Of a DNA stretch of 64,000 bases, positions 13,279 through 35,049 are shown piece by piece; position 1 is the first letter of the stretch; each line of letters opens with the position of its first letter. The stretch is taken from IMG/VR virus record IMGVR_UViG_3300010233_000008. One strand, given 5' to 3'. The notes below the pieces were generated by a model. It was not told the DNA's origin and did not search any database. It saw only the letters and a list, made by a program, of their open reading frames with translations. Made by a program: the position numbers and the translations under genes. Origin of the DNA: a virus.

Positions 13279-13938
13279 ATGGCAAAACATATCAACATTC
13301 CCAATACTAATTATTGGGTATTAGAAGGCGATAGCGCATTAACCAAGGCCGCATTAGAAAGTGGCAGATTAATTAATGAAACATCAATAGAAAATCTCGA
13401 TGAAGTTAAGGCGTTAAAATCGGGTGACGTTGTTTTGGATATAGGAGCTTTGGTTGGAGATACGGCTGAAATTTTTCTAAATCTTGGCTGTGAAGTTTAT
13501 GCTTTTGAGCCATATTTAGATGCGTTTGAATGTTTAGAACATAATTGTCCAAAAGCCAAAAATTATAATGTTGCGGTTGGAGATGGCAGGCAAATGGCTG
13601 CATTGGGAAAATTGGGCGAAGATGGCTCAAATTTTGGAACTAGGATGATGGAATTAAATCAGGGGCAACCATCATTTAGAATAGATGACTTAAATCTTGA
13701 CAAATGTGATTTTGCCAAAATTGATTGCGAGGGATGCGAGCCAATGGTTTTGGATGGAATGAAGAGAACACTGAAAAAGTTCAAGCCAAAATTATTGATA
13801 GAATGTTATGATACTCTATTAAAAAAACAAGGGTTTAGGCGTGAAGATATTTTGGTCCCACTTAAAGAATTGGGATATCAATATCGAGTAGCAATCGGAA
13901 TTGAAAGTAATGATCGTGTAGATTTACTTTTTTACTAA
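13279..13938 (+). CDS. FkbM-family SAM-dependent methyltransferase (219 aa)
   Basis: DIGALVGDTAEIF...GCEVYAFEP...NVAVGDG matches Methyltransf_21/FkbM signature. Confidence 0.65.
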   Translation: MAKHINIPNTNYWVLEGDSALTKAALESGRLINETSIENLDEVKALKSGDVVLDIGALVGDTAEIFLNLGCEVYAFEPYLDAFECLEHNCPKAKNYNVAVGDGRQMAALGKLGEDGSNFGTRMMELNQGQPSFRIDDLNLDKCDFAKIDCEGCEPMVLDGMKRTLKKFKPKLLIECYDTLLKKQGFRREDILVPLKELGYQYRVAIGIESNDRVDLLFY

Positions 13939-13939
13939 A

Positions 13940-14572
13940 ATGTCAGAAAAATTAAAATACGGTCCCGATTGTTTCGACTACAATTATTATAATTCCAATT
14001 TTTCGGAAGCAATGAGATATGATAGTATATCTCAACAACACGAGTTAAAATATAAATTTGATTTTATACAAGATTTTGGAATTACATATAATTCGATATT
14101 ATTTGTCGGGTGTGCGACCGGGAATGAACCAAGATATTTTAGGAATAATGGTAAAGATGCTCAGGGTTGCGATATAAGTAAATATGCAATCAGCCAAGCC
14201 GATTCATCCATTTCTTCTAATATAAGAGAATATGATGGCGAAAAAATATCTTGGCAAGAAGACAATTCTATAGACGTTGTTTGCGCCTTCGATGTTCTAA
14301 CTATTATACCAAAAGAACAAAGAGAAAAATTAATCTCTGAAATGATTAGGGTCGCGTCTAAATTGATAGTTATTAGAACTACATTAAAGGTTCCGGACGA
14401 CTTGACAGATAGTGAATTTGATGGTATAGATGGATACTTATTCAAGCTGGAAACTTTGGCATATTGGGATAATATTTTTACAGAAAATAAAAAGCTCTGG
14501 TTAAAAAAGGCAAAAATTTATTCCATCAAGCATAATCATCGTGAAGCTATAATCGGTTTTGAGAGAGAGTAA
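13940..14572 (+). CDS. class I SAM-dependent methyltransferase (210 aa)
   Basis: motif I ILFVGCATGNE, acidic motif II (QGCDIS) and motif III-like VVCAFDVL. Confidence 0.55.
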   Translation: MSEKLKYGPDCFDYNYYNSNFSEAMRYDSISQQHELKYKFDFIQDFGITYNSILFVGCATGNEPRYFRNNGKDAQGCDISKYAISQADSSISSNIREYDGEKISWQEDNSIDVVCAFDVLTIIPKEQREKLISEMIRVASKLIVIRTTLKVPDDLTDSEFDGIDGYLFKLETLAYWDNIFTENKKLWLKKAKIYSIKHNHREAIIGFERE

Positions 14573-16998
14573 TGGATAGGATCGCTATCATTCAGCTTTG
14601 CAGATTCGGAGATATAGTCTCAATTCTCCCGATTGCCAAATACTTATCAAAAGATAATGAAGTAACAATAATCTGTCATGAAGATTTTGCGGGAATACTT
14701 GATGCAGTTAGTTATGTAAAAGTACAAACATTAAGTACGCATCATAGGGATTTGGTTGGAGCGATTGCTAAGGCTAAATTAGAAGGATACGATCAAATAT
14801 TAGTTACTCAGAATATGGGTAACAATAATCGTATTCCTTATGAAACTGATAATTATCAATGTCAACAATGGGCAAGAGCCGGATTCCTAGATAAGTTTCA
14901 TGATCTACCTTTAATCTTCGATAAAAGAAATAAAGAATTTGAAAATAAAGCCCTAAAACTTTTCTTACCCAAAGAAGATGGACGCCCATTATTAGGCTAT
15001 TCCTTACATGGAATTAGTTCTATCTATCTAAGATGGAAGGAACAAGAAGATTGGATTAAAAAAACATTTGGCAAGACTCATAGATTGATGAATTTTGGCG
15101 ATATTTGTACGGGTCAAGTTCATAATCTTTTGGGATTAATTGAGAAGTGTGATAAGTTAATAAGTATCGACACACTTCATTTACACTTAGCTTATGCGAC
15201 GAATACTCCGACTATAGCTTTGGTTGACGATAATCCACAAAAAAGAAGTGAGCCAAGAAAACATTGGATAGAAAATGTAACCTATATTGAGAGTATTACC
15301 GATATAGGGCGAGAAAAAATAAGTAATGCAGTTTATGACAAACCAAAATTAGGACGATTTTCTAAATCTATTTTCGTTCCTAAACCCGAATCAGAAAATG
15401 ATAATCGGGTTGCCATAATTGAACTAGCTCGATATGGGGATATAGTTAATGTTTTACCTATAGCTTATGATCTCCATAAAAAAGGTAATGAAGTTCACTG
15501 GTTTGTTCATCCTAATTTTGCCGATATTTTAGAAGCCGTTTCTTATGTTAAGGTTCATAAATATGGAGGATCGGATAGGGATGTTCAGGGCACATCAGAT
15601 TATGCTAGAAAACTAGGATTTAAGCGAGTCTTAGAATTACAAGTTAATGGCAATAAATTACCTTCTCCGATTGAATGTGAAAATTTCATTACGCAAAGTT
15701 GGGCTAGAGGCGGATATTTAGATAAGTTTCACGAATTGCCTTTAGTGTTTGATGAAAGAAATATTGATTTTGAAAATGATGCGCAAAAGGGATTGCCATA
15801 TACCCACAAAAAGGAAACGATTGCCTATTCTCTTGAAAGTCATTCATCCCCAATGCCAGAAAATAAAAAATTTGAGCAATGGATAATCAAAGAATTTGGG
15901 GATAAATTTAATCTGTGGAATATTGGGATATTAAAGCTAAAAAAGCCTCAATATCTTATTGGTATGTTGGAAATTGCTGGTATATTGATTTCGGTTGATA
16001 CCCTTTCCCTTCACTTATCCTACGCAACTAATACTCCAGTAATCGCCCTCGCTCCCGACCATAACACTCAAAATTATAAAGAGCGTTATAAATGGTATCA
16101 AAGCGAACCAAGAAATAACTGGATTGAAAGAGTTACTTATACTGATGCCTTAGAGAAAAAAGGTCAAGACAAAATAATCGCTGCCGTAAATGGGAAAAGG
16201 GAATTTGGTAAACTTACTCGTTCATTTGAAAAGTTTAAGTTGGATCGAATAGTTCACGCCGTAGAATGGCATATCCCTCCCCAACAAGATGAAAGGCGTA
16301 GACTTTTATCCGCACATAAAACTTGGGAGTCAGCTAGAAATTCAGATAATTCTTGTAAATTAGTTATAGTTGATACGGATAAAGCTAAGCGAACAAGCAA
16401 AACAGAATTAGGAGATAATCGCACACTTCCTTTTCTCCATGATATAATTGAATCAGGAATAAAAGAGTGTCAGAAAAACGACATACTTCTTCTTACAAAT
16501 TCCGATATATGTTTAACTCCCGAAGTTTCTACAATAATTAGAGCTAAATTAGCTAAAGAACCATGCTGTTTTTCTCGAAGGATAGATGTTCAGAATGCGG
16601 ATATTCCTAAATCATTAAGAATGATTGCTGGAATAGAGCCTCATCCCGGAACCGATTTATTTGCTTTTAGAACTTCATGGTGGGAGAAAAGAAAGAAGGA
16701 TTTTCCTGATTTGCTTGCAGCTTGTGAGGGTTGGGATTTTGTATTTAGACATATAATGTTATGGGATAACCCGAAAGCAGAGATACAGCCACCAATTATT
16801 TATCATGAATTACACAGAGCATACTGGTATAGAGGAGACGTTATTAACTCAAACCCCGGACAAATCTACAATAGAGAACTCGGTAGAGAATGGGCAATCA
16901 AATACGGATATGATGACGCCCTTAATCCAGAATGCCAAGGTGGACTCTTCAAGCTCGACGGACATTTTAGTAGAAAAACTCCCACAAAAACTAGCTGA
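14572..16998 (+). CDS. three-domain glycosyltransferase: 2 x GT9 (heptosyltransferase-like) + C-terminal GT-A-like domain (808 aa)
   Basis: domain 1 IAIIQLCRFGDIVSILP ... SIDTLHLHLAYATNTPTIALV; domain 2 VAIIELARYGDIVNVLP ... SVDTLSLHLSYATNTPVIALA (GT9 N-terminal R.GD..P and C-terminal DTG.HLA.A...P motifs); third domain LVIVDTD...LLLTNSD. Confidence 0.7.
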   Translation: MDRIAIIQLCRFGDIVSILPIAKYLSKDNEVTIICHEDFAGILDAVSYVKVQTLSTHHRDLVGAIAKAKLEGYDQILVTQNMGNNNRIPYETDNYQCQQWARAGFLDKFHDLPLIFDKRNKEFENKALKLFLPKEDGRPLLGYSLHGISSIYLRWKEQEDWIKKTFGKTHRLMNFGDICTGQVHNLLGLIEKCDKLISIDTLHLHLAYATNTPTIALVDDNPQKRSEPRKHWIENVTYIESITDIGREKISNAVYDKPKLGRFSKSIFVPKPESENDNRVAIIELARYGDIVNVLPIAYDLHKKGNEVHWFVHPNFADILEAVSYVKVHKYGGSDRDVQGTSDYARKLGFKRVLELQVNGNKLPSPIECENFITQSWARGGYLDKFHELPLVFDERNIDFENDAQKGLPYTHKKETIAYSLESHSSPMPENKKFEQWIIKEFGDKFNLWNIGILKLKKPQYLIGMLEIAGILISVDTLSLHLSYATNTPVIALAPDHNTQNYKERYKWYQSEPRNNWIERVTYTDALEKKGQDKIIAAVNGKREFGKLTRSFEKFKLDRIVHAVEWHIPPQQDERRRLLSAHKTWESARNSDNSCKLVIVDTDKAKRTSKTELGDNRTLPFLHDIIESGIKECQKNDILLLTNSDICLTPEVSTIIRAKLAKEPCCFSRRIDVQNADIPKSLRMIAGIEPHPGTDLFAFRTSWWEKRKKDFPDLLAACEGWDFVFRHIMLWDNPKAEIQPPIIYHELHRAYWYRGDVINSNPGQIYNRELGREWAIKYGYDDALNPECQGGLFKLDGHFSRKTPTKTS

Positions 16999-17659
16999 AT
17001 CTCCATCTATAAATACTAACGGAGAATTCGCTGATGCTTTACGTCAAGTAATTAAGGAATACGATCCCAGACGACTTTTGGAAACTGGAACATTTGATGG
17101 GTTGGGATCAACCGCGATTATTTCAGAATCCATCAATCCTTTGGCTAGATTAATTACTATCGAATGTGATTTTAGTCTATACGCTAAAGCCGTAGCAAAC
17201 ACTAGAAAATTTGGACACAAAGTAGATTGTAGAAATGGATTATCTATTCCATCTTCAATGTTACCGACTAAAGATGAAATAGTTAAAATGCTAAGTGAAT
17301 GTCCAGATAATCTCAACAAGGATTATCCAGAAGTTCAAAATCTAGATGACTATGCCATTTATTATCTTGATGAAATGAAAAGAGATTTCAAAGAAGATGA
17401 TTTAATTAAGCAGATTGTCTCAAAAGTTTTTGGAGGAAAATTAGATTTTGCGATTTTAGATAGTGCCGGACATTTGGGGTGGTTGGAATTCGCTTGTCTA
17501 TTAAACTTCTTAGAATCTCCATGTATAATTGCTTTAGATGATGTGAATCATATTAAGCATTACAAGAGTATGGAAGCCATAAGAAGCTCAAAGGTATTTA
17601 CTATTTTAAATGAGGGGGACGAGAGATATGGGTGGGCTATTGCTAGATATGATCCTTAA
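16910..17659 (+). CDS. TylF/CmcI-like sugar O-methyltransferase (start uncertain; ORF track 16805)
   Basis: LETGTFDGLGSTAI resembles TylF/macrocin O-MTase Gly-rich SAM motif (ECGV.RGGS); ORF overlaps end of GT gene in another frame; ATG 16910 is first in-frame Met. Confidence 0.5.
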   Translation: MMTPLIQNAKVDSSSSTDILVEKLPQKLAESPSINTNGEFADALRQVIKEYDPRRLLETGTFDGLGSTAIISESINPLARLITIECDFSLYAKAVANTRKFGHKVDCRNGLSIPSSMLPTKDEIVKMLSECPDNLNKDYPEVQNLDDYAIYYLDEMKRDFKEDDLIKQIVSKVFGGKLDFAILDSAGHLGWLEFACLLNFLESPCIIALDDVNHIKHYKSMEAIRSSKVFTILNEGDERYGWAIARYDP

Positions 17660-17904
17660 AAAGTTTTAGTTAAACTTGTCCTTATTGATTTAACTCCGAT
17701 AAAAGCAATTCCATTAAGACAATAATCCCTTTTACACATTAATTCTGAATCTGGAGTAACGGCATCACGAAATAATCTCGTTATCCTTGCTCTTGATTCG
17801 CTTTCAGACTGACTAATAATTTGATCCATTTTCATATCGTCTTGCCAAGTTCCACATTCAACTTGAATTTCAATAATACAATAAGTTTTTACGTCGTTTG
17901 CCAT
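17656..17904 (-). CDS. hypothetical protein (82 aa)
   Basis: first gene of a 5-gene antisense block inside the rightward structural region. Confidence 0.4.
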   Translation of the reverse strand: MANDVKTYCIIEIQVECGTWQDDMKMDQIISQSESESRARITRLFRDAVTPDSELMCKRDYCLNGIAFIGVKSIRTSLTKTF

Positions 17905-17906
17905 AA

Positions 17907-18098
17907 TTATTCCGAATGATGTAAAATATTTTCCGAATTCCTAAACTTATCTACTTTTTCTTGTCCTGCTTGACTCCACAATCCCCTGCATTCCAAACAT
18001 TCACAACCTCGCCTCATTGTACAATAAGTAGTTTCAATAGTCCCATTGGGCAGAAGTCTTTCTCGCCGACGTTGATTTAAAAATTCCTCAACTGACAT
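17907..18098 (-). CDS. Cys-rich hypothetical protein (63 aa)
   Basis: ORF 3 nt from neighbours; CTMRRGCECLEC. Confidence 0.4.
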   Translation of the reverse strand: MSVEEFLNQRRRERLLPNGTIETTYCTMRRGCECLECRGLWSQAGQEKVDKFRNSENILHHSE

Positions 18099-18101
18099 AA
18101 A

Positions 18102-18341
18102 TTATTCCTTCCAATCAATTTTAATTGCTCCGATCAATGCTTGACATTTAAAACCCCTAACTTCTAAACATCTGATTACTTTGTCTCTCATTACATCTCC
18201 AAGCCACCGTCTTTCAAAAGTACAACTAGAATTTTGACTAGCACAAGCCATTCTGATTTCTTGATATATTTCTAAAAGAAATTTATCTCTTAATACAGTA
18301 TCGTTTGCATTGAGTAAATCTCTTGCTTCCTTCGCTGTCAT
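18102..18341 (-). CDS. hypothetical protein (79 aa)
   Basis: tightly packed - strand ORF. Confidence 0.4.
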   Translation of the reverse strand: MTAKEARDLLNANDTVLRDKFLLEIYQEIRMACASQNSSCTFERRWLGDVMRDKVIRCLEVRGFKCQALIGAIKIDWKE

Positions 18342-18343
18342 AA

Positions 18344-18658
18344 TTATTCCTTAATTTGTGGAAGTGGAAACCAATAATGTGGATTCCAATTACTTTCCGT
18401 GAACCATTTTTTGATTTTATATTCATAATGTCCAATGCAAAATCCAATCGACGGATTACAAATTAAAACATCAACCGAATATTCTTTATCAGAATAATTT
18501 TCATCAATAGGCGGATATTCCGTCATTGGCCTAGGACCAAAAAAAGATTCGATAAGACCAGAAATTTCATTATGTAATTTCGTGTGATTTGTTGGGACTG
18601 TAAGCAATTCCAGTATTTTCCCCGCTAGTTTCCATGCTTCTTTTGATGGCATCAGCAA
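18344..18658 (-). CDS. hypothetical protein (104 aa)
   Basis: tightly packed - strand ORF. Confidence 0.4.
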   Translation of the reverse strand: MLMPSKEAWKLAGKILELLTVPTNHTKLHNEISGLIESFFGPRPMTEYPPIDENYSDKEYSVDVLICNPSIGFCIGHYEYKIKKWFTESNWNPHYWFPLPQIKE

Positions 18659-18731
18659 TTCCCCATTTCTAAAAATTCATAATTGGGATTAAAATATAAG
18701 CAAAAGTTAATTAAGAATTTAATGCGGTGCA

Positions 18732-19301
18732 TTACTTTTTCTTCTTTGGTTTCTTGGTTGGCTTGATGGTTGGATCAAAAGTTTTATTTATTGGTTCATT
18801 GGGATTAAAAACCATTTTGGGAATTTCTGGAACATAATAATTATATTCCTCAACTTTAGCAGATTGAATAAATCTAAGTGATGCTATTTCTGCCTCAACT
18901 TTTCTTCCGACATATTGTGCCAATAAACTAGCTTGTTCTCTTGACCAAAATCCCATACCAAAATATTGTGGAGAAAATCTAATTTGTACTGCATATTCTT
19001 CACGATAAGAATTATCAGCAAAGAATGAAATTCTGGTTGCCCGATCTACGATTGGTCCAACAACTTTATCAATTTTTTCTTGACACTCATTTCGCAATTT
19101 ATTCATTGCCCATTCATGGTCGCTTTGCCATATTTTAAGTCTAGATTCATATTGCTTTAGAAATTCTTTATTAGAATTTTGCAAAATCTTTTCGTGATTA
19201 CAAAAACAAATAGGTCGGAAATCCCAAAGCCAACCGAAAAAAGATTTCCCCGCACGAATCCAAGGGTAAGTTGTGTCTAGATAAAGTTTATCTTTTTGCA
19301 T
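18732..19301 (-). CDS. hypothetical protein with Lys-rich C-terminus (189 aa)
   Basis: - strand ORF divergent from 19360 gene. Confidence 0.45.
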   Translation of the reverse strand: MQKDKLYLDTTYPWIRAGKSFFGWLWDFRPICFCNHEKILQNSNKEFLKQYESRLKIWQSDHEWAMNKLRNECQEKIDKVVGPIVDRATRISFFADNSYREEYAVQIRFSPQYFGMGFWSREQASLLAQYVGRKVEAEIASLRFIQSAKVEEYNYYVPEIPKMVFNPNEPINKTFDPTIKPTKKPKKKK

Positions 19302-19359
19302 CCCTCAATTATACATTAACCTTTTTGAAAGTCAATACTAAATTCAATAAATTTTCTCA

Positions 19360-22300
19360 ATGTCAAAATTAGACGACTTAAAACAAAAATTAAATAAAAA
19401 CAAACCGAAAAGGATGAAATTCGCCGGTCTTTCGGTCATAATCGAAAATCCCGTAGACAGTATAAGAAAAGGTGTAAATTCTAAAGGAAAAAGTTGGGCT
19501 ACTCGTCTTAGCCATCCTTATGGGTATCTGGAAAAAGGAGTCGGTGCGGACGGAGAACAATTGGATTGCTTTTTGGGTAATCATCCAGAAGCAAAAGATG
19601 TTTATATCGTGCATCAGAATTCGTTGGACGGCAAGTATGATGAGGATAAATGTCTGCTAGCATTCCCTTCCGCCGAAGAGGCAAAGAAAGCATACTTATC
19701 CAATTACGACACCTCCGATTATTTTCGATCAATGACAACTATTCCGATGAATAGTTTCAAGAAAATGCTTACTACCGAAAAACCCGGAAGCATTAAATGG
19801 ACTAGAAAGCAAAGAAGGAATCACAAATCGGAAGCGATGTTTTCAACCAATACCGAAAATTTTGATGCCGACACGAAAGAAAAATGGTTGACAATTGGCG
19901 GTCACTCTGGACCAGAAGGTAAGCATGAAGGCGGATCACATATAGAAATTTCTGGTGATGGAGATATTGAAAAAGGTCCACCCGATCTAAAAAATAAACC
20001 GATTAGTGACCTAAAATCTAAAATGTCTTCCAAAATTACTCCCGGTGTTCCCCAAATAAATTCCCCCAAGCCATCTTCCGCTCCCGCACCCAAAATAATT
20101 CCTAATTCCCAATACGATCTTAAAACCGGCAAGCAAATTAATTCCCAACCTACTCCTCAAAAGGTAGAAGCTAAGCCAATTCAACCTCCAGTCGAACATC
20201 CATTTTTCGATAAAAAAATAAATGATGTTGCCAAAACGGATCAGGATAACGACAAATGGTGGACCAAACCCAATCAAGTAAGCGACCCCAATAAATTAAA
20301 TCCAGTTCAGCAAGGACAAAAAAATATTGCTAACGATAAAGAATCGCAATCAGCAATGAAAAATTCGCATGATTTGAAAAATTTCGGTTGGGGGAAGATG
20401 GCTCAAGCTGGAAATGCTAATGCGGATAAAATAAATAATTTGGCTGCACAAAAAGGCATAACGGCGAATCAAGCCCAAAGTCAATTATCCCAAAATATTT
20501 CTCCCCAATTAGCTCAACAAAATTTACCTAATAAAAATGCTAGTGGAATTCCGGGGTCATCCCCGATTAATCAATCTCAGGATAATCCTACTCCTAGTTC
20601 AGTAAATCCCCCACAGGAGCAATTGCAACCTAATGTCGGTGCGCCAAAAGGACCAATAAACGATAAGCCTACAAATAAATCTCCCGAATCTTCATTATTC
20701 TATCCTCCCGGCAAATTCTTTCCGCCCTCCGAATCTAAAGCTCCAGTTAATGCTCCGCAAGTTCCTCCACAAGAATTATTAAGTGATAAACCTATGTCTG
20801 GAGTTCAGCGAATTACTCCCGATGATTTTGCTAAAGGATGGGATGGAATAGAAGGTTGGGTTGGAGCTAGAGATAATCCCGAACATGCTGAAAATATAGC
20901 TAAGGGATTAAATCAATTAGGTGATAGAGAGCATGCCGTAATGCAACATTCTAATGGCAAACATATAGTTGTTAGTAGACCAAAACAAGGTCAAGCGAAC
21001 CAAGGTTTAGGTCAGAATCAACTTAGTCAAACTCCCCCAGAACAAATTCAGCCTAATACCCAAATTCCTAATGAAGAAATGCAAGAGCAATTAGGATCAA
21101 CTGGTGCGGCAACTCCCGCCATCAATAATCCTAATGAAATAAAACAGCAAGAAAATAAACCCGCTTCGCAAGAGCCATTATTTGATAATCCAAAAACTCC
21201 ATCACAAGAACCGTTACCAGAGGAACCAGAACAAAAATTAGGTGGAGTTCAAGATTATAGTAAAGCCTCAATTGAACGCCAATTATTAGATCATTATCAA
21301 AAGAATGGTGGAAATGCTGACGATCAAGATGAAAAATTAACCTCAGCTTATCATTCCCCATTTACTTTTAGACGAACAAGTAAAACTAAATCAGGATTTC
21401 CCGGTGAAATAGATAGGATGCTAGAAGGTCCGAACGGTAAAAAATTAAGAAGGCTTTTAAGTCTAACCGATAATCCAGAATCTTCTCAAGGTGCGGATTT
21501 AATGGGAGATTTAGGGGTAGATGGATATGAGCAATTACTTAATAGAAAATTAGGTGGCAAGAAAAATACTACATTAAATTCCGCATTAGATTTTGCCAAG
21601 AAATCTGGCGATCCGCAAATGGAATTCTTGGCTAAGCTTCATAGTATAACTCCCGATAGGCAAGATAAGAAGCCACAAGAGGTTATAAATACTCAGGCAT
21701 TACAAACTGGCGAAGCTGCGACTATTCATGGTATTCCTGTTACTATTAATGAGGATGAAAATGGGAATAAATCTATAGATGATGGTGGACATTTGCCGAG
21801 CGTTCCGTTAGAATCTATGAAACAATTACCTATTGATAAGGGTAGTTTACATAATACGGAAGAGCCGGAAGTTGATGAAAGTCCATTTGCTCCCGATGAA
21901 TTAAATCCAGAGGAATTAAATGAAAAAACGGATGAAGAAAGTCAGCCCGAACCAAGTCAAGAAAATGCTCCGGTTGAGTCTTCCCAAGATAATTCTGGAC
22001 AAGAAAATGGAATTGACTCTGGAATTGGAGAAGAAAATCCAGAAATTAATAAAGATGAGCAAGGGAATCGACCCGATACAAATGTTAATCCCACAACGGA
22101 ATCTCCCGAAATTAATCCAAGCAATCAAATCGGGAAAAGTGAAGGGGAAAATAGGGATAGTGAATCTAAGCCTCAATCAATTCCTCCAATTAAATCAAAT
22201 AAATTAGAGGAAAAACCAAATGAAAAAATCCCCGAAAAAGAAAAGTCAAAAGCTGTCCCGCAACATTCAGAAACTACTAATGAATCCCATAAAGATTTGG

Positions 22301-23349
22301 GCAAAGAAAAACAAAATGTCGGTTCGTCTGATTCAAAAGAAAAAGTAAATGAAAGTCCGAAAGATAAACCAGCCCCACAGTCTCCGGTCACTTCTAATCC
22401 ACCGGCTAAAAATGAAGTTAAAGAAGAAAATCCCAAAGCTTCCGCGCAAATTCATCCTCCCTATAAACATCCATTAAGAGATATCTACGAAAAAGCTAAT
22501 CCGAGATCGCAACAAGCGTCTAAAGAGGCAAATAAAAGCGGAAATAAAGTAAATATTCAGGAATCCGGAATTCAGGCTCGCGGATCGGCAATGGGTTTGC
22601 ATGGAGCTAAAAAGCGTGAAGATGCAATCAATAACGCTATAAAACAATATGGTCCTACCGAAAAAGCAATGCAAGTTGCCGTTGCCAATAGTTATAGACA
22701 ACCATTAAGTAAATCAGAAAAACAATATTTTAAGGATTATGCGGAGTCTTTAGCCAAGAGCAAAAACCCTTCAACATCCGTTGAAACTCCCCCAAATAAT
22801 GAAACTGCAAAATCTCCCACTACATCAGAAATACCGGAAGTCGATAACACAAAACAACTAGGCTTATACGAAAAAGATAAATCTGGTAATCCCAAAGAAG
22901 TAGGAGAAAAACCCGGACAATCCAATTTATTCAACCCCAATAAATTTAAGACAGAAGAAAAACCCAAAGAAGAAAAAGTCGCCCCTCAATTTGACCCAAA
23001 ACATACACAAGAAATGTTCCCCAATAAGGAACAATCGAAACCTATAGATCAATTAAAAGAAAAGATGAATCCAGACAAGAATCCCGTCAAAATGTCGGGA
23101 TCGCCAATTGACCAATTAAAAGATAAAATGCAGAAAAATAAGGGGTCTGGATATGATATTAATGAAGACGATGGATATATAGAAATTAAGCGAAATGGAC
23201 AAACAATTGCGACCGGAACTAGACAGCCAAATGGCAAAATAGGGGATTTACAATATAAACATCCTGTACACCAAAAGTTAGATGCTATAAGAAATGCCGT
23301 GCAACGCGCAATTAATGAACACGAGAAAAATCCACCTAGTCTAAAATAA
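19360..23349 (+). CDS. giant protein: inorganic-pyrophosphatase-like N-terminal domain + ~1200-aa intrinsically disordered P/Q/N/K/E-rich region (1329 aa)
   Basis: N-domain SVIIENP..., SHPYGYL, GADGEQLDCFLG, DGKYDEDKCLLAFP align with family I PPase motifs (VVIEIP, YP.NYGYI, DGDP.DVLV, DEAGEDAKLVAVP); remainder low-complexity with short tandem repeats (PIDQLKEKM/PIDQLKDKM). Confidence 0.6.
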   Translation: MSKLDDLKQKLNKNKPKRMKFAGLSVIIENPVDSIRKGVNSKGKSWATRLSHPYGYLEKGVGADGEQLDCFLGNHPEAKDVYIVHQNSLDGKYDEDKCLLAFPSAEEAKKAYLSNYDTSDYFRSMTTIPMNSFKKMLTTEKPGSIKWTRKQRRNHKSEAMFSTNTENFDADTKEKWLTIGGHSGPEGKHEGGSHIEISGDGDIEKGPPDLKNKPISDLKSKMSSKITPGVPQINSPKPSSAPAPKIIPNSQYDLKTGKQINSQPTPQKVEAKPIQPPVEHPFFDKKINDVAKTDQDNDKWWTKPNQVSDPNKLNPVQQGQKNIANDKESQSAMKNSHDLKNFGWGKMAQAGNANADKINNLAAQKGITANQAQSQLSQNISPQLAQQNLPNKNASGIPGSSPINQSQDNPTPSSVNPPQEQLQPNVGAPKGPINDKPTNKSPESSLFYPPGKFFPPSESKAPVNAPQVPPQELLSDKPMSGVQRITPDDFAKGWDGIEGWVGARDNPEHAENIAKGLNQLGDREHAVMQHSNGKHIVVSRPKQGQANQGLGQNQLSQTPPEQIQPNTQIPNEEMQEQLGSTGAATPAINNPNEIKQQENKPASQEPLFDNPKTPSQEPLPEEPEQKLGGVQDYSKASIERQLLDHYQKNGGNADDQDEKLTSAYHSPFTFRRTSKTKSGFPGEIDRMLEGPNGKKLRRLLSLTDNPESSQGADLMGDLGVDGYEQLLNRKLGGKKNTTLNSALDFAKKSGDPQMEFLAKLHSITPDRQDKKPQEVINTQALQTGEAATIHGIPVTINEDENGNKSIDDGGHLPSVPLESMKQLPIDKGSLHNTEEPEVDESPFAPDELNPEELNEKTDEESQPEPSQENAPVESSQDNSGQENGIDSGIGEENPEINKDEQGNRPDTNVNPTTESPEINPSNQIGKSEGENRDSESKPQSIPPIKSNKLEEKPNEKIPEKEKSKAVPQHSETTNESHKDLGKEKQNVGSSDSKEKVNESPKDKPAPQSPVTSNPPAKNEVKEENPKASAQIHPPYKHPLRDIYEKANPRSQQASKEANKSGNKVNIQESGIQARGSAMGLHGAKKREDAINNAIKQYGPTEKAMQVAVANSYRQPLSKSEKQYFKDYAESLAKSKNPSTSVETPPNNETAKSPTTSEIPEVDNTKQLGLYEKDKSGNPKEVGEKPGQSNLFNPNKFKTEEKPKEEKVAPQFDPKHTQEMFPNKEQSKPIDQLKEKMNPDKNPVKMSGSPIDQLKDKMQKNKGSGYDINEDDGYIEIKRNGQTIATGTRQPNGKIGDLQYKHPVHQKLDAIRNAVQRAINEHEKNPPSLK

Positions 23350-23533
23350 ATTCCATAATATCTTTAGAGGGAATTTCATTTGTCAGTCTTTTGTCGAGGG
23401 CGGCGGAAGTTTGCTTAAGACAATTTATAATTCTTGATATTGGTCCGGTTGGTATATCATAATCGCGGTCCAATTCTTTAATCCATTTGCGAACAACAAT
23501 AATATCTGATTCGATTTGATCCATAATTACCAT
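23336..23533 (-). CDS. hypothetical protein (65 aa)
   Basis: - strand ORF convergent with giant gene. Confidence 0.35.
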   Translation of the reverse strand: MVIMDQIESDIIVVRKWIKELDRDYDIPTGPISRIINCLKQTSAALDKRLTNEIPSKDIMEFILD

Positions 23534-23724
23534 CCTATATCTTTAGATGCCGCGACATGCGCATCGTCGCCTACTTCGATTCGCTTTTTCTTCATTGCTT
23601 CGGCAAAATATTGACCACGTTCATCCTGAAAGAAAGGATCGCCTATTGAAGAAAATCTCCACTTTGCCAACATACTTTTATAATCCATTTTATCAATTTC
23701 TCGTTTTTGCTCATCGGTAATCAT
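23527..23724 (-). CDS. hypothetical protein (65 aa)
   Basis: - strand ORF, 7-nt overlap with neighbour. Confidence 0.35.
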   Translation of the reverse strand: MITDEQKREIDKMDYKSMLAKWRFSSIGDPFFQDERGQYFAEAMKKKRIEVGDDAHVAASKDIGW

Positions 23725-23739
23725 AATAAATTCCTATGG

Positions 23740-23955
23740 TTAACATGATTCGTGGTCTAAATGTCCACAACCAACGCAAATAAAATCGACATATTCTCCC
23801 GGATTAAATTCCGAGGCAAATTCGGGATCAACTCCATGTCGCCATTCCCAATCATCCATTCCGCAATCCGGACATATTCTCCCCATTGGTTTATGTTTAC
23901 CAAAAGCCTTTTTGTTACACTCATTAACAGACCAATAAACTAGATCGTATTTCAT
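23740..23955 (-). CDS. zinc-finger protein (71 aa)
   Basis: CPDCG...CVGCGH. Confidence 0.4.
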   Translation of the reverse strand: MKYDLVYWSVNECNKKAFGKHKPMGRICPDCGMDDWEWRHGVDPEFASEFNPGEYVDFICVGCGHLDHESC

Positions 23956-23958
23956 AAT

Positions 23959-24381
23959 TTACTCCATCATTTTATTGACTTGATCTTTTGCTGTTTCAAT
24001 AATATTTGACATTTTTTGTAATGGGGATGGTCCATTACTTCTAATTTCTTTAAGAATTTTACAGCAAGGATACGGTTGTCCGTTTCTTCTCGGAATATGA
24101 TTTGGGCATTTACGACAAACTTTCATAGGTACTGAATATCCCGCTTTCATTCGCGGATATTCTTCTGACGGAGATTGCGGACAATTGAACGCAGAAAGCT
24201 GACCCAAAGTAAGACTTGCATCTTTTCCATCAACTGTTTTATATGACTTAATAAAAACGCCCTGATTATTTGTGGTTCCTTCATTTCCAAAATGCCATCC
24301 ATTAGGCAAACGTCTAATCTTTCCGTTTGCCGACTCAACTAACGACTTACCCATAACATTAAATATATTAGTTCCACGCAT
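23959..24381 (-). CDS. hypothetical protein (140 aa)
   Basis: - strand ORF ending the antisense block; divergent from promoter at 24450. Confidence 0.45.
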   Translation of the reverse strand: MRGTNIFNVMGKSLVESANGKIRRLPNGWHFGNEGTTNNQGVFIKSYKTVDGKDASLTLGQLSAFNCPQSPSEEYPRMKAGYSVPMKVCRKCPNHIPRRNGQPYPCCKILKEIRSNGPSPLQKMSNIIETAKDQVNKMME

Positions 24382-24484: not shown

Positions 24485-24847
24485 GTGAAGAAAAAGAATT
24501 ATTATATTAAAAAGGGTTATGTTAAGAATTGCACCGATCCCAAGATAGAGTTATATGAATCTGGATTTAGGGCAATGTGTTTTCATGTCGCCTATAATCA
24601 TTTTTATCATTTAGTTGCTGACAATACTTTAAGGTTTGCATATGCTTTATGCCATTCTTCACTTCCCATTAAAGATAGGGAGACCGTTGAGGCGTGGTAT
24701 AAATGGAGCAAGGGAAAAACCATCAAAGAAATGATGAATCACGGTCACGAAATCCCTAAATCACTAAAACCTATCGTTAATTCTTATTTTTCAGCTATTA
24801 AGAAAAGAGCTAAAGAGAATAAAGAAGATGTGAATTATTTGTTATGA
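24485..24847 (+). CDS. hypothetical protein (120 aa, GTG start per ORF track)
   Basis: ORF preceding GT-sulfotransferase gene with 4-nt overlap. Confidence 0.4.
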   Translation: MKKKNYYIKKGYVKNCTDPKIELYESGFRAMCFHVAYNHFYHLVADNTLRFAYALCHSSLPIKDRETVEAWYKWSKGKTIKEMMNHGHEIPKSLKPIVNSYFSAIKKRAKENKEDVNYLL

Positions 24848-26190
24848 ACCCGACAATTTGCTTCGTTACTACTTGCAAAAATCGCGCAAATCATATTAAG
24901 GAATGCTTGCCCGCGAATCTGGCAGACAATACCGATCCAAATCATAAATTCATCCTTTTAGATTATAATAGTCAAGATGATCTTATTGATTATCTTAAAT
25001 CTAATCATCAAAAAGATATAAATTCAGGGAGATTAGTAGTTTATAGTTTTAAGAGTCACGGACCATTTAGAATGGCTCATGCCAAAAATATGGCACACCG
25101 TTTAGGTATTCTAGAGGGCGGCAACATATTAGTTAATCTTGATGCTGATAATTTTACTGGTAAGGAATTTTCGACTTATATTCAGGAAAAATTTAAGCAA
25201 GATAATATATTCTTATGGGCAAAAAGGATTATAGGTCAAGCTCATACTAGAGGAACCTCTGGGCGTATCGGGGTATCTTCTAAATCCTTTATTCTGGCTG
25301 GAGGATACGATGAAAAGTATAATACTTGGTCTCCTGACGACAAAGACTTCAACGCTAGATTATGTCGCTTAGATTTTGTTCCTATTGAGATTGATCCTAA
25401 ATTCTTAAAAGCTAAAGTTCATAACGACAATATTAGATTTTCAGAGTATAAACATATTGATCTTGACGAACAAGAAGAAGAATCATTAAGAATCGGAGAT
25501 TCCGATCATACCATAGCTAATTTTGGCAGGATCGGATGTGGTACGGTTTATAAGAATTTCTCTAATGAACCAATAAATATAGACCCAATTCCAACTAGAA
25601 TATTTGGGATAGGGATGCACAAGACAGCGACCACTTCCCTAAATAAAGCATTTAAGATTTTAGGTTATCATTCCGCACATTGGAAATCTCCGCAATGGGC
25701 TAGAAATATTTGGGATGAAATACATAAATTTGGTAAATCCAGAACATTAGAAAAATATTATGCGCTATGCGATTTACCTATCACCTTACTCTATCAATCA
25801 TTGGATATAGCTTATCCCGGAAGTAAATTCATTCTTACTATCAGGGATGAAAATCAATGGCTGGAAAGCGTTAAGAATCATTGGGATTATGATCTAAATA
25901 TTTATAGAGAGAGTTGGGATAATGATGCCTTTACGCATAGAGTTCACAGTGAATTATATGGTAGGAAAATGTTCGATGTGGAAATTTTTATCAAGAGATT
26001 TCGTAGGCATAATGATGAAGTAAGAAATTATTTTAAAAATCGTCCACAAGATTTACTTGTTTTGGATATAGATAAAAAAGATAAGTGGGGAAAACTTTGT
26101 CCATTTTTGAATGTGGGAATACTGAATATTTCTTATCCGGAAGAGTTCAATACGGATAAAAGGGTAAAATTTTTAGCAGAAAATATTTAA
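24844..26190 (+). CDS. fusion protein: GT-A glycosyltransferase (DXD) + sulfotransferase domain (448 aa)
   Basis: N-half ICFVTTCKNR...LVNLDADNF (GT-A/GT2-like DXD); C-half GMHKTATTSL (5'-PSB PKSGTT-like, catalytic Lys) and ILTIRDENQWLESV (3'-PB RD...S motif) of PAPS sulfotransferases. Confidence 0.55.
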   Translation: MNPTICFVTTCKNRANHIKECLPANLADNTDPNHKFILLDYNSQDDLIDYLKSNHQKDINSGRLVVYSFKSHGPFRMAHAKNMAHRLGILEGGNILVNLDADNFTGKEFSTYIQEKFKQDNIFLWAKRIIGQAHTRGTSGRIGVSSKSFILAGGYDEKYNTWSPDDKDFNARLCRLDFVPIEIDPKFLKAKVHNDNIRFSEYKHIDLDEQEEESLRIGDSDHTIANFGRIGCGTVYKNFSNEPINIDPIPTRIFGIGMHKTATTSLNKAFKILGYHSAHWKSPQWARNIWDEIHKFGKSRTLEKYYALCDLPITLLYQSLDIAYPGSKFILTIRDENQWLESVKNHWDYDLNIYRESWDNDAFTHRVHSELYGRKMFDVEIFIKRFRRHNDEVRNYFKNRPQDLLVLDIDKKDKWGKLCPFLNVGILNISYPEEFNTDKRVKFLAENI

Positions 26191-27011
26191 TGAAAACACT
26201 TACAAATAATGCTGGTCAAAAATTCAAATTAGGTAGAATTCAGCCTTCTACTCGTCGGCTTGGTTTGTCGATGAAGGATTTACTTTCTGCAAATGTATTA
26301 CCACAAATAACTTTGCCAACATCTACTAATTATGGGGCGAAGGCAACGCAGTCGCTAAATAATATTTATTTGAACGGAAGCCTTTCGGATTGCGTTGTGG
26401 CGTGCGGATTCCATTGCGATGGTGTTACGTCTGGGAACAATGGCAGCGAAGTTTTGTATACCGATGCCCAAGTAATCCAGAATTATAGTGCAATCGGTGG
26501 CTATAATCCAAATGCCCCATTGGTTAGCGGAGAAAACGAAAGCGATAATGGTTGTAGCGAAGAAGTTGCAATCTCATATTGGGAAGCAAACGGTTTTCCT
26601 TCCGGAAGATGGCTAAAACGCGCTATTACCTTAGACCCTAATAATATTGAAGAAATCCGTACGGCCTTATATCTATTTGAAAATATTTGCTTCAATATAA
26701 ATTTACCCGATGCTTGGATTGATCCATTTCCTTCTGGCAATAATTTTGTTTGGGGAAAAAATGGCGAACCGGATCAAATGAACGGGCATAGTTTTTTGGG
26801 CTATGATATTTTAGCTAATGGAAATTTAGCGATAGACACTTGGGGAATTTTGGGAGAAATAACTCCAGAAGCAATAAGCTATTACGGTAATTGGAGTCAA
26901 GGGGGACAATTATTTACTTTCCTTTTGCCAGATATGTTCTACAGATTGTCGAAGAAAAGCCCAATTGGGTATGATGAAAATATCCTGATAGATTTTTTGA
27001 ATAAGCTCTAA
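26190..27011 (+). CDS. hypothetical protein, possible Cys/His peptidase-like (273 aa)
   Basis: start overlaps previous stop (ATGA); candidate catalytic SDCVVACGFH ... NGHSFLGYD ... DTWG; weak. Confidence 0.4.
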   Translation: MKTLTNNAGQKFKLGRIQPSTRRLGLSMKDLLSANVLPQITLPTSTNYGAKATQSLNNIYLNGSLSDCVVACGFHCDGVTSGNNGSEVLYTDAQVIQNYSAIGGYNPNAPLVSGENESDNGCSEEVAISYWEANGFPSGRWLKRAITLDPNNIEEIRTALYLFENICFNINLPDAWIDPFPSGNNFVWGKNGEPDQMNGHSFLGYDILANGNLAIDTWGILGEITPEAISYYGNWSQGGQLFTFLLPDMFYRLSKKSPIGYDENILIDFLNKL

Positions 27012-28826: not shown

Positions 28827-29459
28827 ATGGAGGCTCTAGGATTCTACCTTAAACAACAAGTAATGGATAGACATGAAACTCAAGGTGAATCGGGGGGTGA
28901 GCCTTGGCAATCTAAAAAGATTAAAGAATGGGGATATGATGATGGTAGAGCAATTCTTACTGGTAAATCAGCGGAAATGCTTAATAGATGGTTCTCTTAT
29001 GCCGAAGTAGAGGGAAATATAGGAACCGCTGTTGTAGCTAATTCCGCACCTTATTCTTATGTTCAGGAATTAGGTACTGTAGGCAAGGGTGGAGTTTTAC
29101 CCGATATTGTTCCAGTTAATGCTAAAGCTTTATTTATTCCTATTACAGATAAAGGAATAAGCTATGCCAAAAATGTATTAAATGTCGCTAGAATAAGTAG
29201 GGGGATAGGGGGGGTTAAATTTAGTTTACCTAATGAAATTCCTTCTGGACCTAAAGCTAAAGGGATATTATCTGGTAGTGATTTAATAAAGGGGAGATTG
29301 AAAGATGGGAAATTACAAAAATTAACTGATGCGGGGTGGGTTGATGGAACGCCAGACTTTATTTTTCTCTCGAAGTCTTCGATCCCTCCACGCAAACAAT
29401 TACCTACTTCTCCACAAGAAAGATTGGCTCAGCAAAAGTTTTTGATTAGTGAGACCTAA
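28827..29459 (+). CDS. hypothetical structural protein (210 aa)
   Basis: Gly-rich ORF at start of tail region. Confidence 0.45.
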   Translation: MEALGFYLKQQVMDRHETQGESGGEPWQSKKIKEWGYDDGRAILTGKSAEMLNRWFSYAEVEGNIGTAVVANSAPYSYVQELGTVGKGGVLPDIVPVNAKALFIPITDKGISYAKNVLNVARISRGIGGVKFSLPNEIPSGPKAKGILSGSDLIKGRLKDGKLQKLTDAGWVDGTPDFIFLSKSSIPPRKQLPTSPQERLAQQKFLISET

Positions 29460-34963: not shown

Positions 34964-35049
34964 TACGTTTTTAACTTTTCTCACAATAAATCCTTTCAAT
35001 AAAATTATGAAACATAACATTATTATAACAAGAAAAACTTTTAAGTCAA

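What the first reader, a model, noticed from the sequence alone, without database searches (positions are those of the whole stretch)
19360..23349. 1329-aa protein: inorganic-pyrophosphatase-like N-terminal domain fused to a ~1200-aa intrinsically disordered P/Q/N/K/E-rich region
Residues ~20-130 align motif by motif with family I PPases: SVIIENP (VVIEIP), SHPYGYL (YPCNYGYI), GADGEQLDCFLG (DGDPVDVLV), DGKYDEDKCLLAFP (DEAGEDAKLVAVP). This includes the Asp/Glu metal ligands. The rest of the protein is almost entirely low-complexity with short tandem repeats (PIDQLKEKM x2, QEPL repeats) and ends in a small globular segment. A catalytic-looking PPase module on a giant disordered tether inside the structural region is highly unusual. 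It might be an ejected or internal virion protein, or it might pull nucleotide-sugar reactions forward.
Basis: partly seen in the sequence, partly recalled or inferred. Interest (0 to 1): 0.7.

Follow-up and report, generated by a model that had tools for sequence, protein, structure and literature searches.

The report
Phage polyvalent protein with pyrophosphatase-like domain
This 1329-residue phage gene is real and starts with a pyrophosphatase-like domain, but that domain is a known hallmark of large "polyvalent" proteins that phages are thought to pack into the head and inject with their DNA, and the rest is a string of conserved modules joined by floppy linkers, not one giant disordered tail.

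Summary
The ORF 19360-23349 (+) is real. Residues 14-137 match Pfam PF18823 "InPase" (E 1.7e-36). The AlphaFold model (pLDDT 82) hits only family I inorganic pyrophosphatases in the PDB. This domain was described in 2017 as a phage-specific component of polyvalent proteins, and it occurs in 461 of 50,697 sequenced phages, mostly fused to portal or minor head proteins. It is therefore not highly unusual.

The claim of a ~1200-aa disordered region is only half right. The remainder holds conserved modules:
- A: residues ~165-235.
- B: residues ~620-845, with more than 100 homologues and a confident fold (pLDDT 90) that has no known structural relative.
- C: residues ~1150-1235.
- A small C-terminal segment.

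About 680 aa of unconserved hydrophilic linker separate these modules. Five syntenic relatives carry a protein with the same module order (InPase, A where detected, B, usually C) at the same position, after the Mu-like head genes and, where the contig extends, before a tail-completion gene. Some relatives add topoisomerase IB or LPD1.

Best reading: a virion-packaged, injected polyvalent effector whose InPase domain hydrolyses pyrophosphate or a nucleotide-like phosphoanhydride early in infection. Packaging and catalysis are inferred, not shown. Module C carries conserved QLGLF/QxNLF motifs that match the bacterial sliding-clamp-binding consensus; this lead is untested.

Verdict: new member of a known kind, modest interest.

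The parts
19360..23349 (+). Complete ORF, 1329 aa: phage polyvalent-type protein
   Evidence: ORF list. The identical protein is recorded once on a 72,004-bp JGI contig. Conserved modules lie in one frame along its length.
19399..19770 (+). InPase domain (residues 14-137), family I pyrophosphatase-like OB fold. Invariant residues E29, R36, Y54, G55, D64, D69, Q86, D94, E95, K97; E66 stands where most homologues have D.
   Evidence: Pfam PF18823, E 1.7e-36. Alignment A2 invariants. AF2 pLDDT 81.8. Foldseek top 50 hits are all inorganic PPases. Profile alignment to E. coli PPase residues 53-73.
19852..20064 (+). Module A (residues ~165-235). Consensus W[IV]TIGG..G..G.H.GG..V.I...G.I..GP..L.GK.i..L. 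Ends in PISDLKSKM.
   Evidence: 23 homologous copies aligned, present 2-3 times in some proteins. No Pfam or PHROG family.
20077..21204 (+). Linker 1 (residues ~240-615). P/Q/N/K/S-rich, 19% hydrophobic, essentially no homologues. Contains QEPLF (604-608). A possible small island lies at ~480-540.
   Evidence: Coverage profile, composition, motif positions. Disorder is inferred, not predicted with a dedicated tool.
21217..21894 (+). Module B (residues ~620-845). Conserved ~220-aa domain with a helical N-part and a small SH3-like beta barrel. No known family or fold match.
21907..22806 (+). Linker 2 (residues ~850-1149). E/K/S/P/N-rich, 14% hydrophobic, no homologues.
22807..23064 (+). Module C (residues ~1150-1235). 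Consensus VD..RQ.GLFAKD..G.P.E[IV]GE..GQANLF ... DP.HT..MF. In this protein: QLGLY 1166-1170 (nt 22855-22869), QSNLF 1187-1191 (nt 22918-22932), TQEMF 1216-1220.
   Evidence: 32-sequence alignment. Motif conservation and 20-fold enrichment of Qxx[LM]F. Clamp-binding consensus taken from PMC3716654.
23041..23130 (+). Two copies of PIDQLK[ED]KM (residues 1228-1236 and 1249-1257), similar to the end of module A (PISDLKSKM, 214-222).
   Evidence: Direct reading of the sequence.
23140..23334 (+). C-terminal segment (residues 1261-1325), probably a small folded unit.
   Evidence: One homologue, P0141 residues 448-512, E 5e-15. Not LPD1.

Best explanation
The gene encodes a phage-type polyvalent protein. 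This is a long modular polypeptide made late in infection together with the head proteins. It is most likely packed inside the capsid and delivered into the next host cell with the DNA.

Its N-terminal InPase domain is a trimmed family I pyrophosphatase fold that keeps the metal-binding carboxylates. On entry it most likely hydrolyses inorganic pyrophosphate, or a nucleotide-like phosphoanhydride. This would favour early phage transcription or replication, or destroy a host defence nucleotide.

Modules A, B and C are conserved partner domains of unknown function, shared with other polyvalent proteins. The two long hydrophilic proline-rich linkers keep the modules independent. They would also let the protein travel through the tail channel in an extended state.

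Shown here: the ORF, the domain family and fold, the conserved modular architecture, the conserved genomic position, and the co-occurrence of its modules with polyvalent-protein domains.

Inferred: packaging, ejection, catalytic activity, substrate, and disorder of the linkers.
For: - Domain and fold: Pfam InPase E 1.7e-36. PPase fold by AF2 plus Foldseek. Core motif aligned to E. coli PPase with Y54=Y55, D64=D65, E66=D67, D69=D70. Invariant E29, D64, D69, D94, E95, K97 and R36 in 14 homologues.
- Virion link: the best PDB and phage hits are the C-terminal extension of the portal of PB1-like phages (9b41 gp19 residues 633-753). That part lies beyond the modelled residues 94-528 and had no discernible density in the map (PMC11456595).
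- Polyvalent partners: module B co-occurs in 20 large homologues with LPD38, LPD1, LPD5, LPD23, LPD3, ART-PolyVal, MuF_C, PBECR3, 2H and topoisomerase IB. InPase-only homologues carry ART-PolyVal, LPD38, PBECR1, helicase, SLT, Zeta toxin, Mu portal and RNAP domains.
- Recurrent architecture: the same order, InPase, A where detected, B, then C in most, is found in P0020, P0021, P0026, P0027, P0032, P0035, P0059, P0064 and P0049.
- Conserved position: in syntenic loci L002-L005 the protein follows the Mu-like head genes (MuF-like protein where the locus reaches it, gpT-like capsid, gp36-like adaptor, 808-aa GT9 protein). In L002, L004 and L005, as in L001, a tail-completion-like gene follows it; L003 ends at the gene.
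- Linkers: homologues also have 170-860-aa hydrophobic-poor linkers whose composition tracks genome GC.
Against: - There is no direct evidence of packaging. No virion proteome or structure exists for this protein or its full-length relatives, and none of them is in the 50,697-phage collection.
- No packaging signal, MuF or portal fusion, or processing peptidase was found in this protein.
- The position equivalent to the proposed general base D67 is Glu (E66). The K29/E31 hairpin and the Y141/K142 phosphate ligands of canonical PPases have no visible counterpart, so true PPi hydrolysis is uncertain.
- The Foldseek TM-scores are modest (~0.45).
- Disorder of the linkers was not tested with a proper predictor. 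A FoldIndex calculation was uninformative because it also called the folded domains unfolded.
Confidence: 0.6

Rival explanations
1. It is a late morphogenetic or scaffolding-type protein that acts in the infected cell during head assembly and is not delivered to the next host. The InPase domain would work in the producer cell or be purely structural.
For: The gene sits among head-assembly genes in all relatives. No capsid-targeting or MuF/portal fusion was found in this protein. Long hydrophilic regions are also typical of scaffolding proteins (own knowledge).
Against: Its modules travel with effector-type domains (ART-PolyVal, PBECR3, 2H, topoisomerase IB), which make sense only in a target cell. 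The lengths of positional orthologues vary two-fold, 1329-2707 aa, which is odd for a scaffold that must fit a fixed capsid. InPase is fused to portals, that is, to parts retained in virions.
Confidence: 0.15
2. It is an external head or neck decoration or fibre. The proline-rich linkers would be extended spacers, possibly modified by the neighbouring glycosyl-, methyl- and sulfotransferases.
For: The structural module of this phage and its relatives is unusually rich in glycosyltransferases and methyltransferases. An 808-aa GT9-domain protein is conserved next to the head genes in four relatives.
Against: Ser plus Thr content of the linkers is ordinary (S 8-12%). An intracellular-type metal-dependent hydrolase and partner domains such as topoisomerase IB or ART have no obvious role outside the capsid. 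No Ig-like, collagen or fibre domain was detected.
Confidence: 0.1
3. It is an auxiliary metabolic pyrophosphatase that drives PPi-releasing biosynthesis (nucleotide-sugar or nucleic-acid synthesis) in the infected cell.
For: PPase fold with retained metal ligands. Many sugar-modifying genes lie nearby.
Against: By established biochemistry, glycosyltransferases release NDP, not PPi. No sugar-1-phosphate nucleotidyltransferase was found among the ORFs scanned. The protein fails the canonical PPase family model (no PF00719 hit at E<=10). A 1200-aa appendage of conserved non-metabolic modules is unexplained by this reading.
Confidence: 0.05
4. The long ORF is an artefact: a mis-assembly across low-complexity sequence, or a fusion of separate genes.
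For: Biased composition. Only one database record has the exact protein.
Against: There are no tandem DNA repeats apart from one marginal 12-bp array (TRF score 33). A 3990-nt stop-free frame occurs in 37-39% GC DNA. Four independently conserved modules lie in the same frame and in the same order as in several other proteins from unrelated samples.
Confidence: 0.02

Closest known systems
InPase domain of phage polyvalent proteins (Pfam PF18823; Iyer, Burroughs, Anand, de Souza & Aravind 2017, PMC5512222)
   Same: Strong HMM match, family I PPase OB fold, conserved acidic residues, phage origin, virion-gene context, and embedding in a long multidomain protein.
   Different: Here InPase is the only recognisable enzymatic domain. 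It sits at the extreme N-terminus and is combined with three modules (A, B, C) that are in no Pfam, PHROG or NCBIfam family.
Portal protein gp19 of Pseudomonas phage Pa193 and other PB1-like phages (PDB 9b41)
   Same: Carries the same InPase domain (E 2.5e-21 to the query), which had no discernible density in the cryo-EM map (residues 529-765).
   Different: There the domain is a C-terminal appendage of the portal, in 12 copies fixed at the vertex. Here it heads a separate 1329-aa protein, and the window has its own portal gene without it.
Canonical family I soluble inorganic pyrophosphatase (e.g. E. coli Ppa, M. tuberculosis Rv3628)
   Same: Overall fold and the YGY...D.D..D core with the metal-binding aspartates.
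   Different: 14-16% identity, TM ~0.45 and no PF00719 hit. About 10 residues shorter between the first Glu and the YGY strand, consistent with the missing hairpin noted in PMC5512222. Glu replaces Asp67. The C-terminal Tyr/Lys phosphate ligands are not identifiable. It is not a free hexameric enzyme.
Phage P1 Dar internal head proteins (DarB, DdrB) and N4 virion RNA polymerase
   Same: These are the experimentally studied model for large multidomain proteins packed in the head and injected with DNA (summarised in PMC5512222). One PHROG hit is to a 'DarB-like antirestriction' family through the InPase region.
   Different: No methylase, helicase, ParB or RNAP domain is present here. Homology is limited to the InPase domain. 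Packaging is unproven for this protein.
Bacterial beta-sliding-clamp-binding motif QL[S/D]LF (Pol II QLGLF, UmuC QLNLF; PMC3716654)
   Same: Module C keeps Q[LF]GLF and Q[AG][NDS]LF in nearly all 32 homologues. The query has QLGLY and QSNLF.
   Different: Only a motif-level resemblance; binding is untested. The surrounding residues are also conserved, so module C may be a small domain or a processing site and not a clamp-binding peptide.

Membership tests
Pfam PF18823 InPase (polyvalent-protein pyrophosphatase-like domain) | Score above the curated gathering threshold over most of the model | tested here: met
   125.5 bits against 26.8, model positions 9-134 of 135, residues 14-137.
Pfam PF18823 InPase (polyvalent-protein pyrophosphatase-like domain) | Family I PPase OB fold | tested here: met
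   AF2 pLDDT 81.8, pTM 0.77. The 50 listed Foldseek PDB hits are all inorganic PPases, probability ~1.0 for the best but TM only ~0.45.
Pfam PF18823 InPase (polyvalent-protein pyrophosphatase-like domain) | Conserved acidic metal-binding residues | tested here: met
   E29, D64, D69, D94 and E95 are invariant in 14 homologues. D64, E66 and D69 align to E. coli D65, D67 and D70. E66 is a conservative D-to-E change.
Pfam PF18823 InPase (polyvalent-protein pyrophosphatase-like domain) | Lacks the beta hairpin between the first two core strands that all solved PPases have (PMC5512222) | tested here: inconclusive
   25 residues separate E29 and Y54, against 35 between E20 and Y55 in E. coli. This is consistent with the loss, but no residue-level structural superposition was available.
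Pfam PF18823 InPase (polyvalent-protein pyrophosphatase-like domain) | Hydrolytic activity on PPi or a nucleotide | not testable with these tools
   Needs an enzyme assay.
Canonical family I inorganic pyrophosphatase (PF00719, EC 3.6.1.1) | Match to the family model or signature D-[SGDN]-D-[PE]-[LIVMF]-D-[LIVMGAC] (signature recalled from own knowledge) | tested here: not met
   No PF00719 hit at E<=10. The query has DGEQLDC, with E at the third and Q at the fourth position.
Canonical family I inorganic pyrophosphatase (PF00719, EC 3.6.1.1) | Full set of substrate ligands (E. coli K29, E31, R43, Y141, K142) | tested here: inconclusive
   Only R36 and K97 are invariant basic residues. Profile alignments cover only the core motif.
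Phage-type polyvalent proteins (Iyer et al. 2017) | Several distinct domains in one polypeptide, including domains of the polyvalent repertoire | tested here: met
   InPase plus modules A, B and C. Module B co-occurs with LPD38, LPD1, LPD5, LPD23, LPD3, ART-PolyVal, MuF_C, PBECR3, 2H and TopoIB in homologues.
Phage-type polyvalent proteins (Iyer et al. 2017) | Encoded by a phage with a portal-terminase system, in the context of virion genes | tested here: met
   Portal, major head and adaptor genes lie upstream. The position after the head genes is conserved in five related loci, and a tail-completion gene follows wherever the locus extends past the gene.
Phage-type polyvalent proteins (Iyer et al. 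2017) | Packaged in the capsid and delivered into the host | not testable with these tools
   Needs virion proteomics and an ejection assay.
Beta-sliding-clamp-binding proteins | Pentapeptide Qxx[LM]F / QL[SD]LF | tested here: met
   QSNLF at 1187-1191 and QEPLF at 604-608. QLGLY at 1166-1170 is a near match. The second motif is kept in 32 of 32 homologues. There are 81 observed against 4.0 expected in module-C proteins.
Beta-sliding-clamp-binding proteins | Physical binding to the hydrophobic cleft of DnaN | not testable with these tools
   The host is unknown and no complex prediction or binding assay was possible.

The most novel reading that the evidence does not exclude
Module C, and the extra QG[NS]LFG copies scattered through related proteins, are tandem beta-sliding-clamp-binding motifs. 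Injected phage polyvalent proteins would then dock on the host DNA sliding clamp. This would either place their enzymatic domains (here a pyrophosphatase) at sites of DNA synthesis, or block the clamp's partner-binding cleft and so stall host replication. If true, it would define a previously unrecognised targeting principle for this whole class. Modules A and B would be new uncatalogued domains of that class.
Probability: 0.25. Interest if true: 0.6.

Novelty: new member of a known kind. Interest (0 to 1): 0.3.

Why it matters
The pyrophosphatase-like domain on a long phage protein is already explained: it belongs to the polyvalent-protein repertoire described in 2017. The headline of the finding is therefore not new.

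The protein has two points of modest value:
- It belongs to a recurrent, uncultivated-phage architecture (InPase-A-B-C) whose three partner modules are absent from Pfam, PHROGs, NCBIfam, the PDB and BFVD. One of them folds confidently.
- The most conserved short motifs in this family match the bacterial sliding-clamp-binding consensus. This gives a concrete, cheap experiment on how injected phage proteins find their targets.

No InPase domain of this type has been assayed or resolved structurally. Any member, including this one, could serve for that first test.

Tried and rejected
- The search for homologous proteins with the N-domain alone and with the module B alignment returned nothing. Other tools found many relatives, so I treat this as a limitation of the word index and not as evidence of absence.
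- The look-up of encoding contigs did not find the query itself.
- tblastn of residues 140-1329 and of the portal against 50,697 phage records gave no match. The phage and the tail modules are known only from metagenomes.
- The afdb50 fold library was unavailable.
- The profile of module B against PDB sequences gave only chance hits to designed helical repeats.
- hmmalign and hhalign to E. coli PPase aligned only the YGY...DGD..D core. The equivalences E29=E20 and E95/K97=D102/K104 therefore rest on inspection.
- A FoldIndex-type calculation called 95% of the protein unfolded, including the two domains AlphaFold folds confidently. It was discarded as uninformative.
- The promoter and terminator scan was at chance level.
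- The C-terminal segment is not LPD1.
- A tape-measure role was considered and rejected. By own knowledge, tape-measure proteins are largely helical and sit next to tail genes. This protein is proline-rich, varies two-fold in length among positional orthologues, and carries effector-type partner domains.


Full report
**1. The observation**

The ORF is present as described: 19360..23349, + strand, ATG start, 1329 aa. The identical protein is on record once, on a 72,004-bp JGI metagenome contig.

Composition is strongly biased: K 146, P 127, S 114, N 111, E 110, Q 95. Tandem Repeats Finder reports nothing in the ORF except a marginal 12-bp array. The bias is therefore compositional and not a repeat array. 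PIDQLK[ED]KM occurs twice near the C-terminus. A third copy, PISDLKSKM, is at 214-222, and SQEPL occurs twice.

**2. The N-terminal domain**

- Residues 14-137 match Pfam PF18823 'InPase' with E 1.7e-36, covering positions 9-134 of the 135-position model.
- All PHROG hits of the protein go through this domain. They include 'minor head protein', 'virion structural protein' and 'DarB-like antirestriction' families.
- An alignment with 13 homologous domains shows invariant E29, R36, G43, Y54, G55, D64, D69, Q86, D94, E95, K97, F102, A108, Y112 and F133.
- AlphaFold2 on this alignment gives mean pLDDT 81.8 and pTM 0.77, with a beta-barrel followed by two helices.
- In Foldseek against the PDB, the 50 listed hits are all family I inorganic pyrophosphatases. 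The best is 4z70, E 3.5e-4, probability 1.0, but TM is only ~0.45 at 14-16% identity.
- A profile of the alignment against PDB sequences finds the Pa193 portal (E 1.9e-44). After that, 24 of 27 weak hits are inorganic PPases, aligned on YGYI...DGD.vDV. hhalign against E. coli PPase gives 88.6% probability over the same stretch.
- From these alignments: Y54=Y55, D64=D65, E66=D67 and D69=D70. The equivalences E29=E20 and E95/K97=D102/K104 rest on inspection and on strand order in the model.
- The domain is about 10 residues shorter than E. coli PPase between the first Glu and the YGY strand. It gives no hit to the canonical PPase family at E<=10.

**3. The domain is already known**

Iyer et al. 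2017 (PMC5512222) describe these InPase domains as follows:
- They are type I PPase OB folds that lack a beta hairpin.
- They are sometimes fused to portals and are predicted to be packaged and injected.
- Two functions are proposed: attack on a nucleotide made in response to infection, or clearing of PPi to favour early replication or transcription.

In the collection of 50,697 phage records, 461 carry the domain. Nearly all have it as the C-terminal part of the portal or 'minor head protein' of PB1-like Pseudomonas phages. ECML-117-like coliphages, BcepF1, Serratia MTx and others also carry it.

The only solved structure with the domain in its sequence is the Pa193 portal (9b41). That model stops at residue 528 and residues 529-765 had no density (PMC11456595). 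No structure or assay of this domain type therefore exists.

**4. The rest of the protein is not one disordered tail**

HMMER of residues 140-1329 against 1.84 billion representative proteins gave 144 hits, 82 of them below 1e-10. Mapping them back shows four conserved stretches:
- Module A: ~165-235, ~33 hits.
- Module B: ~620-845, ~115 hits, E to 7e-55.
- Module C: ~1150-1235, ~33 hits.
- C-terminal segment: 1261-1325, one good homologue at E 5e-15.

Between them, residues ~240-615 and ~850-1150 have essentially no homologues. They are poor in hydrophobic residues, 19% and 14%.

Module B was aligned with 32 homologues. AlphaFold2 predicts it with mean pLDDT 90.4 as a helical part followed by a small beta barrel. 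It has no significant structural match:
- BFVD: no hit at E<=1e-3.

No Pfam, NCBIfam or PHROG family covers modules A, B, C, the C-terminus or the linkers.

About half of the protein (~680 aa) is plausibly disordered linker, not ~1200 aa. Even that remains an inference, because a simple charge/hydropathy index could not separate folded from unfolded parts in this very hydrophilic protein.

**5. A recurrent architecture at a conserved genomic position**

The order InPase (with A where detected), then B, then in most C, recurs in P0020, P0021, P0026, P0027, P0032, P0035, P0059, P0064 and P0049. P0032 and P0049 end in LPD1. P0027 adds a topoisomerase IB and LPD1.

In 20 other large proteins, module B travels with LPD38, LPD1, 2H, ART-PolyVal, LPD5, MuF_C, PBECR3, LPD23, LPD3 and TopoIB. 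This is the classical polyvalent repertoire.

The contigs encoding P0020, P0026, P0027, P0032 and P0064 were retrieved and compared with the window. Across loci L002-L005, each covering part of it, the shared gene order is:
- Mu-like portal
- MuF-like protein
- a 527-aa protein
- gpT-like capsid protein (window 10093-11349; 39-55% identity)
- gp36-like adaptor
- an 808-aa protein with a GT9 domain
- methyltransferase
- the InPase protein
- a Phage_tail_S-like protein (window 28827-29459)
- proteins of ~424, ~1106, ~584 and ~551 aa

The InPase protein always follows the head genes, and a tail-completion gene follows it in every locus that extends past it (L003 ends at the gene). Its length ranges from 1329 to 2707 aa. 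Only the modules are conserved, with the N-terminal InPase(+A) stretch at 41-47% identity.

The linkers of the relatives are equally long (170-860 aa) and hydrophobic-poor. They are A/P/G/E-rich, whereas the query's are P/Q/N/K/S-rich, which tracks genome composition. Long flexible spacers are therefore a conserved trait of the family, even though their sequences are not conserved.

**6. Most likely function**

The best-supported reading is that of Iyer et al.: a polyvalent protein made with the head proteins, packed into the capsid and delivered with the DNA. Its InPase domain would hydrolyse PPi or a nucleotide-like phosphoanhydride at the start of infection.

- Shown: family, fold, conserved ligands, modular architecture, conserved virion-module position, and polyvalent partner domains.
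- Inferred: packaging, ejection, activity and substrate.
- Caveats: E66 replaces the Asp proposed as general base in canonical enzymes. The lysine/glutamate hairpin and the C-terminal Tyr/Lys phosphate ligands are not identifiable, so a substrate other than PPi is quite possible.

Glycosyltransferases such as those encoded nearby release NDP and not PPi, and no nucleotidyltransferase was seen in the ORFs scanned.

Rivals kept with low weight are a non-packaged morphogenetic role, an external and possibly glycosylated decoration, and a metabolic PPase. An assembly artefact is practically excluded, because four conserved modules lie in one frame and in the family's usual order.

**7. An unexpected lead**

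Module C has the consensus VD..RQ.GLFAKD..G.P.E[IV]GE..GQANLF...DP.HT..MF.
- The first pentapeptide is Q[LF]GLF in most sequences; QLGLF is the Pol II clamp-binding motif.
- The second is Q[AG][NDS][LM]F in 32 of 32 sequences.
- The published beta-clamp-binding consensus is QL[S/D]LF, with UmuC QLNLF (PMC3716654).
- The 31 module-C proteins contain 81 Qxx[LM]F motifs against 4.0 expected from shuffling. Thirty of these lie outside module C, often as tandem 'SQG[NS]LFG' copies in linkers.
- The query has QLGLY (1166-1170), QSNLF (1187-1191) and QEPLF (604-608).

Phage use of the host clamp through such motifs has recently been reported for Mu MuC (PMC12867686). The polyvalent-protein paper does not mention clamps. 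The motifs could equally be processing sites or part of a small domain. I put the clamp reading at about 0.25.

**8. Verdict**

The protein is a new member of a known kind: a phage polyvalent protein with an InPase domain. Its partner modules are uncatalogued. Interest is modest (0.3). It would rise if the clamp-binding hypothesis or an unusual substrate of the InPase domain were demonstrated.

Noticed in passing
window 30394-31056 (-), 32340-33047 (-), 34289-35074 (-): Three paralogous HNH endonuclease genes (phrog_374, E 1e-64 to 1e-72) lie on the opposite strand, wedged between + strand structural genes. Homologues sit at similar places in the related loci L004 and L005. They look like homing endonucleases spreading within the tail-gene region.
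   Followed up: partly
window 13279-17659, 24844-27011, 44754-47484: The structural region is unusually rich in modification enzymes. There are two methyltransferases (13279-13938, 13940-14572) and an 808-aa protein with a GT9 heptosyltransferase-like domain that is conserved next to the head genes in four relatives. There is also a GT2 plus sulfotransferase fusion (24844-26190), a GT34-type glycosyltransferase (44754-46577) and another methyltransferase (46768-47484). Virion or host-surface glycosylation is possible.
   Followed up: partly
protein P0003 (homologue, not in the window), residues ~318-662: An intein (Pfam PF14528/PF14890) interrupts the InPase domain of this homologue directly after the metal-binding motif DGDHVDC. 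Inteins usually sit in functionally critical sites, which hints that this motif is functionally important.
   Followed up: no
protein P0018 (homologue, not in the window): In this homologue an N-terminal InPase domain is fused to multisubunit-type RNA polymerase domains (PF00623, PF00562), with a LAGLIDADG homing-endonuclease domain (PF03161) in the same protein. This is reminiscent of virion-packaged RNA polymerases of crAss-like phages, and is a physical link between PPi removal and transcription.
   Followed up: no
window 19852-20064 and homologues P0127, P0132, P0134, P0155: Module A (W[IV]TIGG..G..G.H.GG..V.I...G.I..GP..L.GK) is a glycine-rich ~45-aa unit that is in no database family. 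It is repeated two or three times in some proteins and is often preceded by a QxxLF motif. Its role is unknown.
   Followed up: partly
window 19302-19359 and 23336-23349: The gene is flanked on both sides by blocks of small minus-strand ORFs (17656-19301 and 23336-24381). The downstream one overlaps its stop by 14 nt. The 58-bp upstream gap shows no Shine-Dalgarno-like sequence before the ATG. In the relatives the gene is in one + strand run, so these small-gene blocks look like insertions.
   Followed up: partly
window 5670-6491 and 7834-9417: ORF 5670-6491 matches a MuF-like protein of L003 (47% identity) and, weakly, a 'minor head protein and DNA pilot' PHROG. The 527-aa ORF 7834-9417 is conserved in L003 and L005 at the place where Mu has its protease/scaffold, but it matches no family.
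   Followed up: no
locus L004 5769-9791: In the relative encoding P0064, a second polyvalent protein (1340 aa, ART-PolyVal) lies immediately upstream of the InPase protein. These phages can therefore carry more than one such protein side by side.
   Followed up: no
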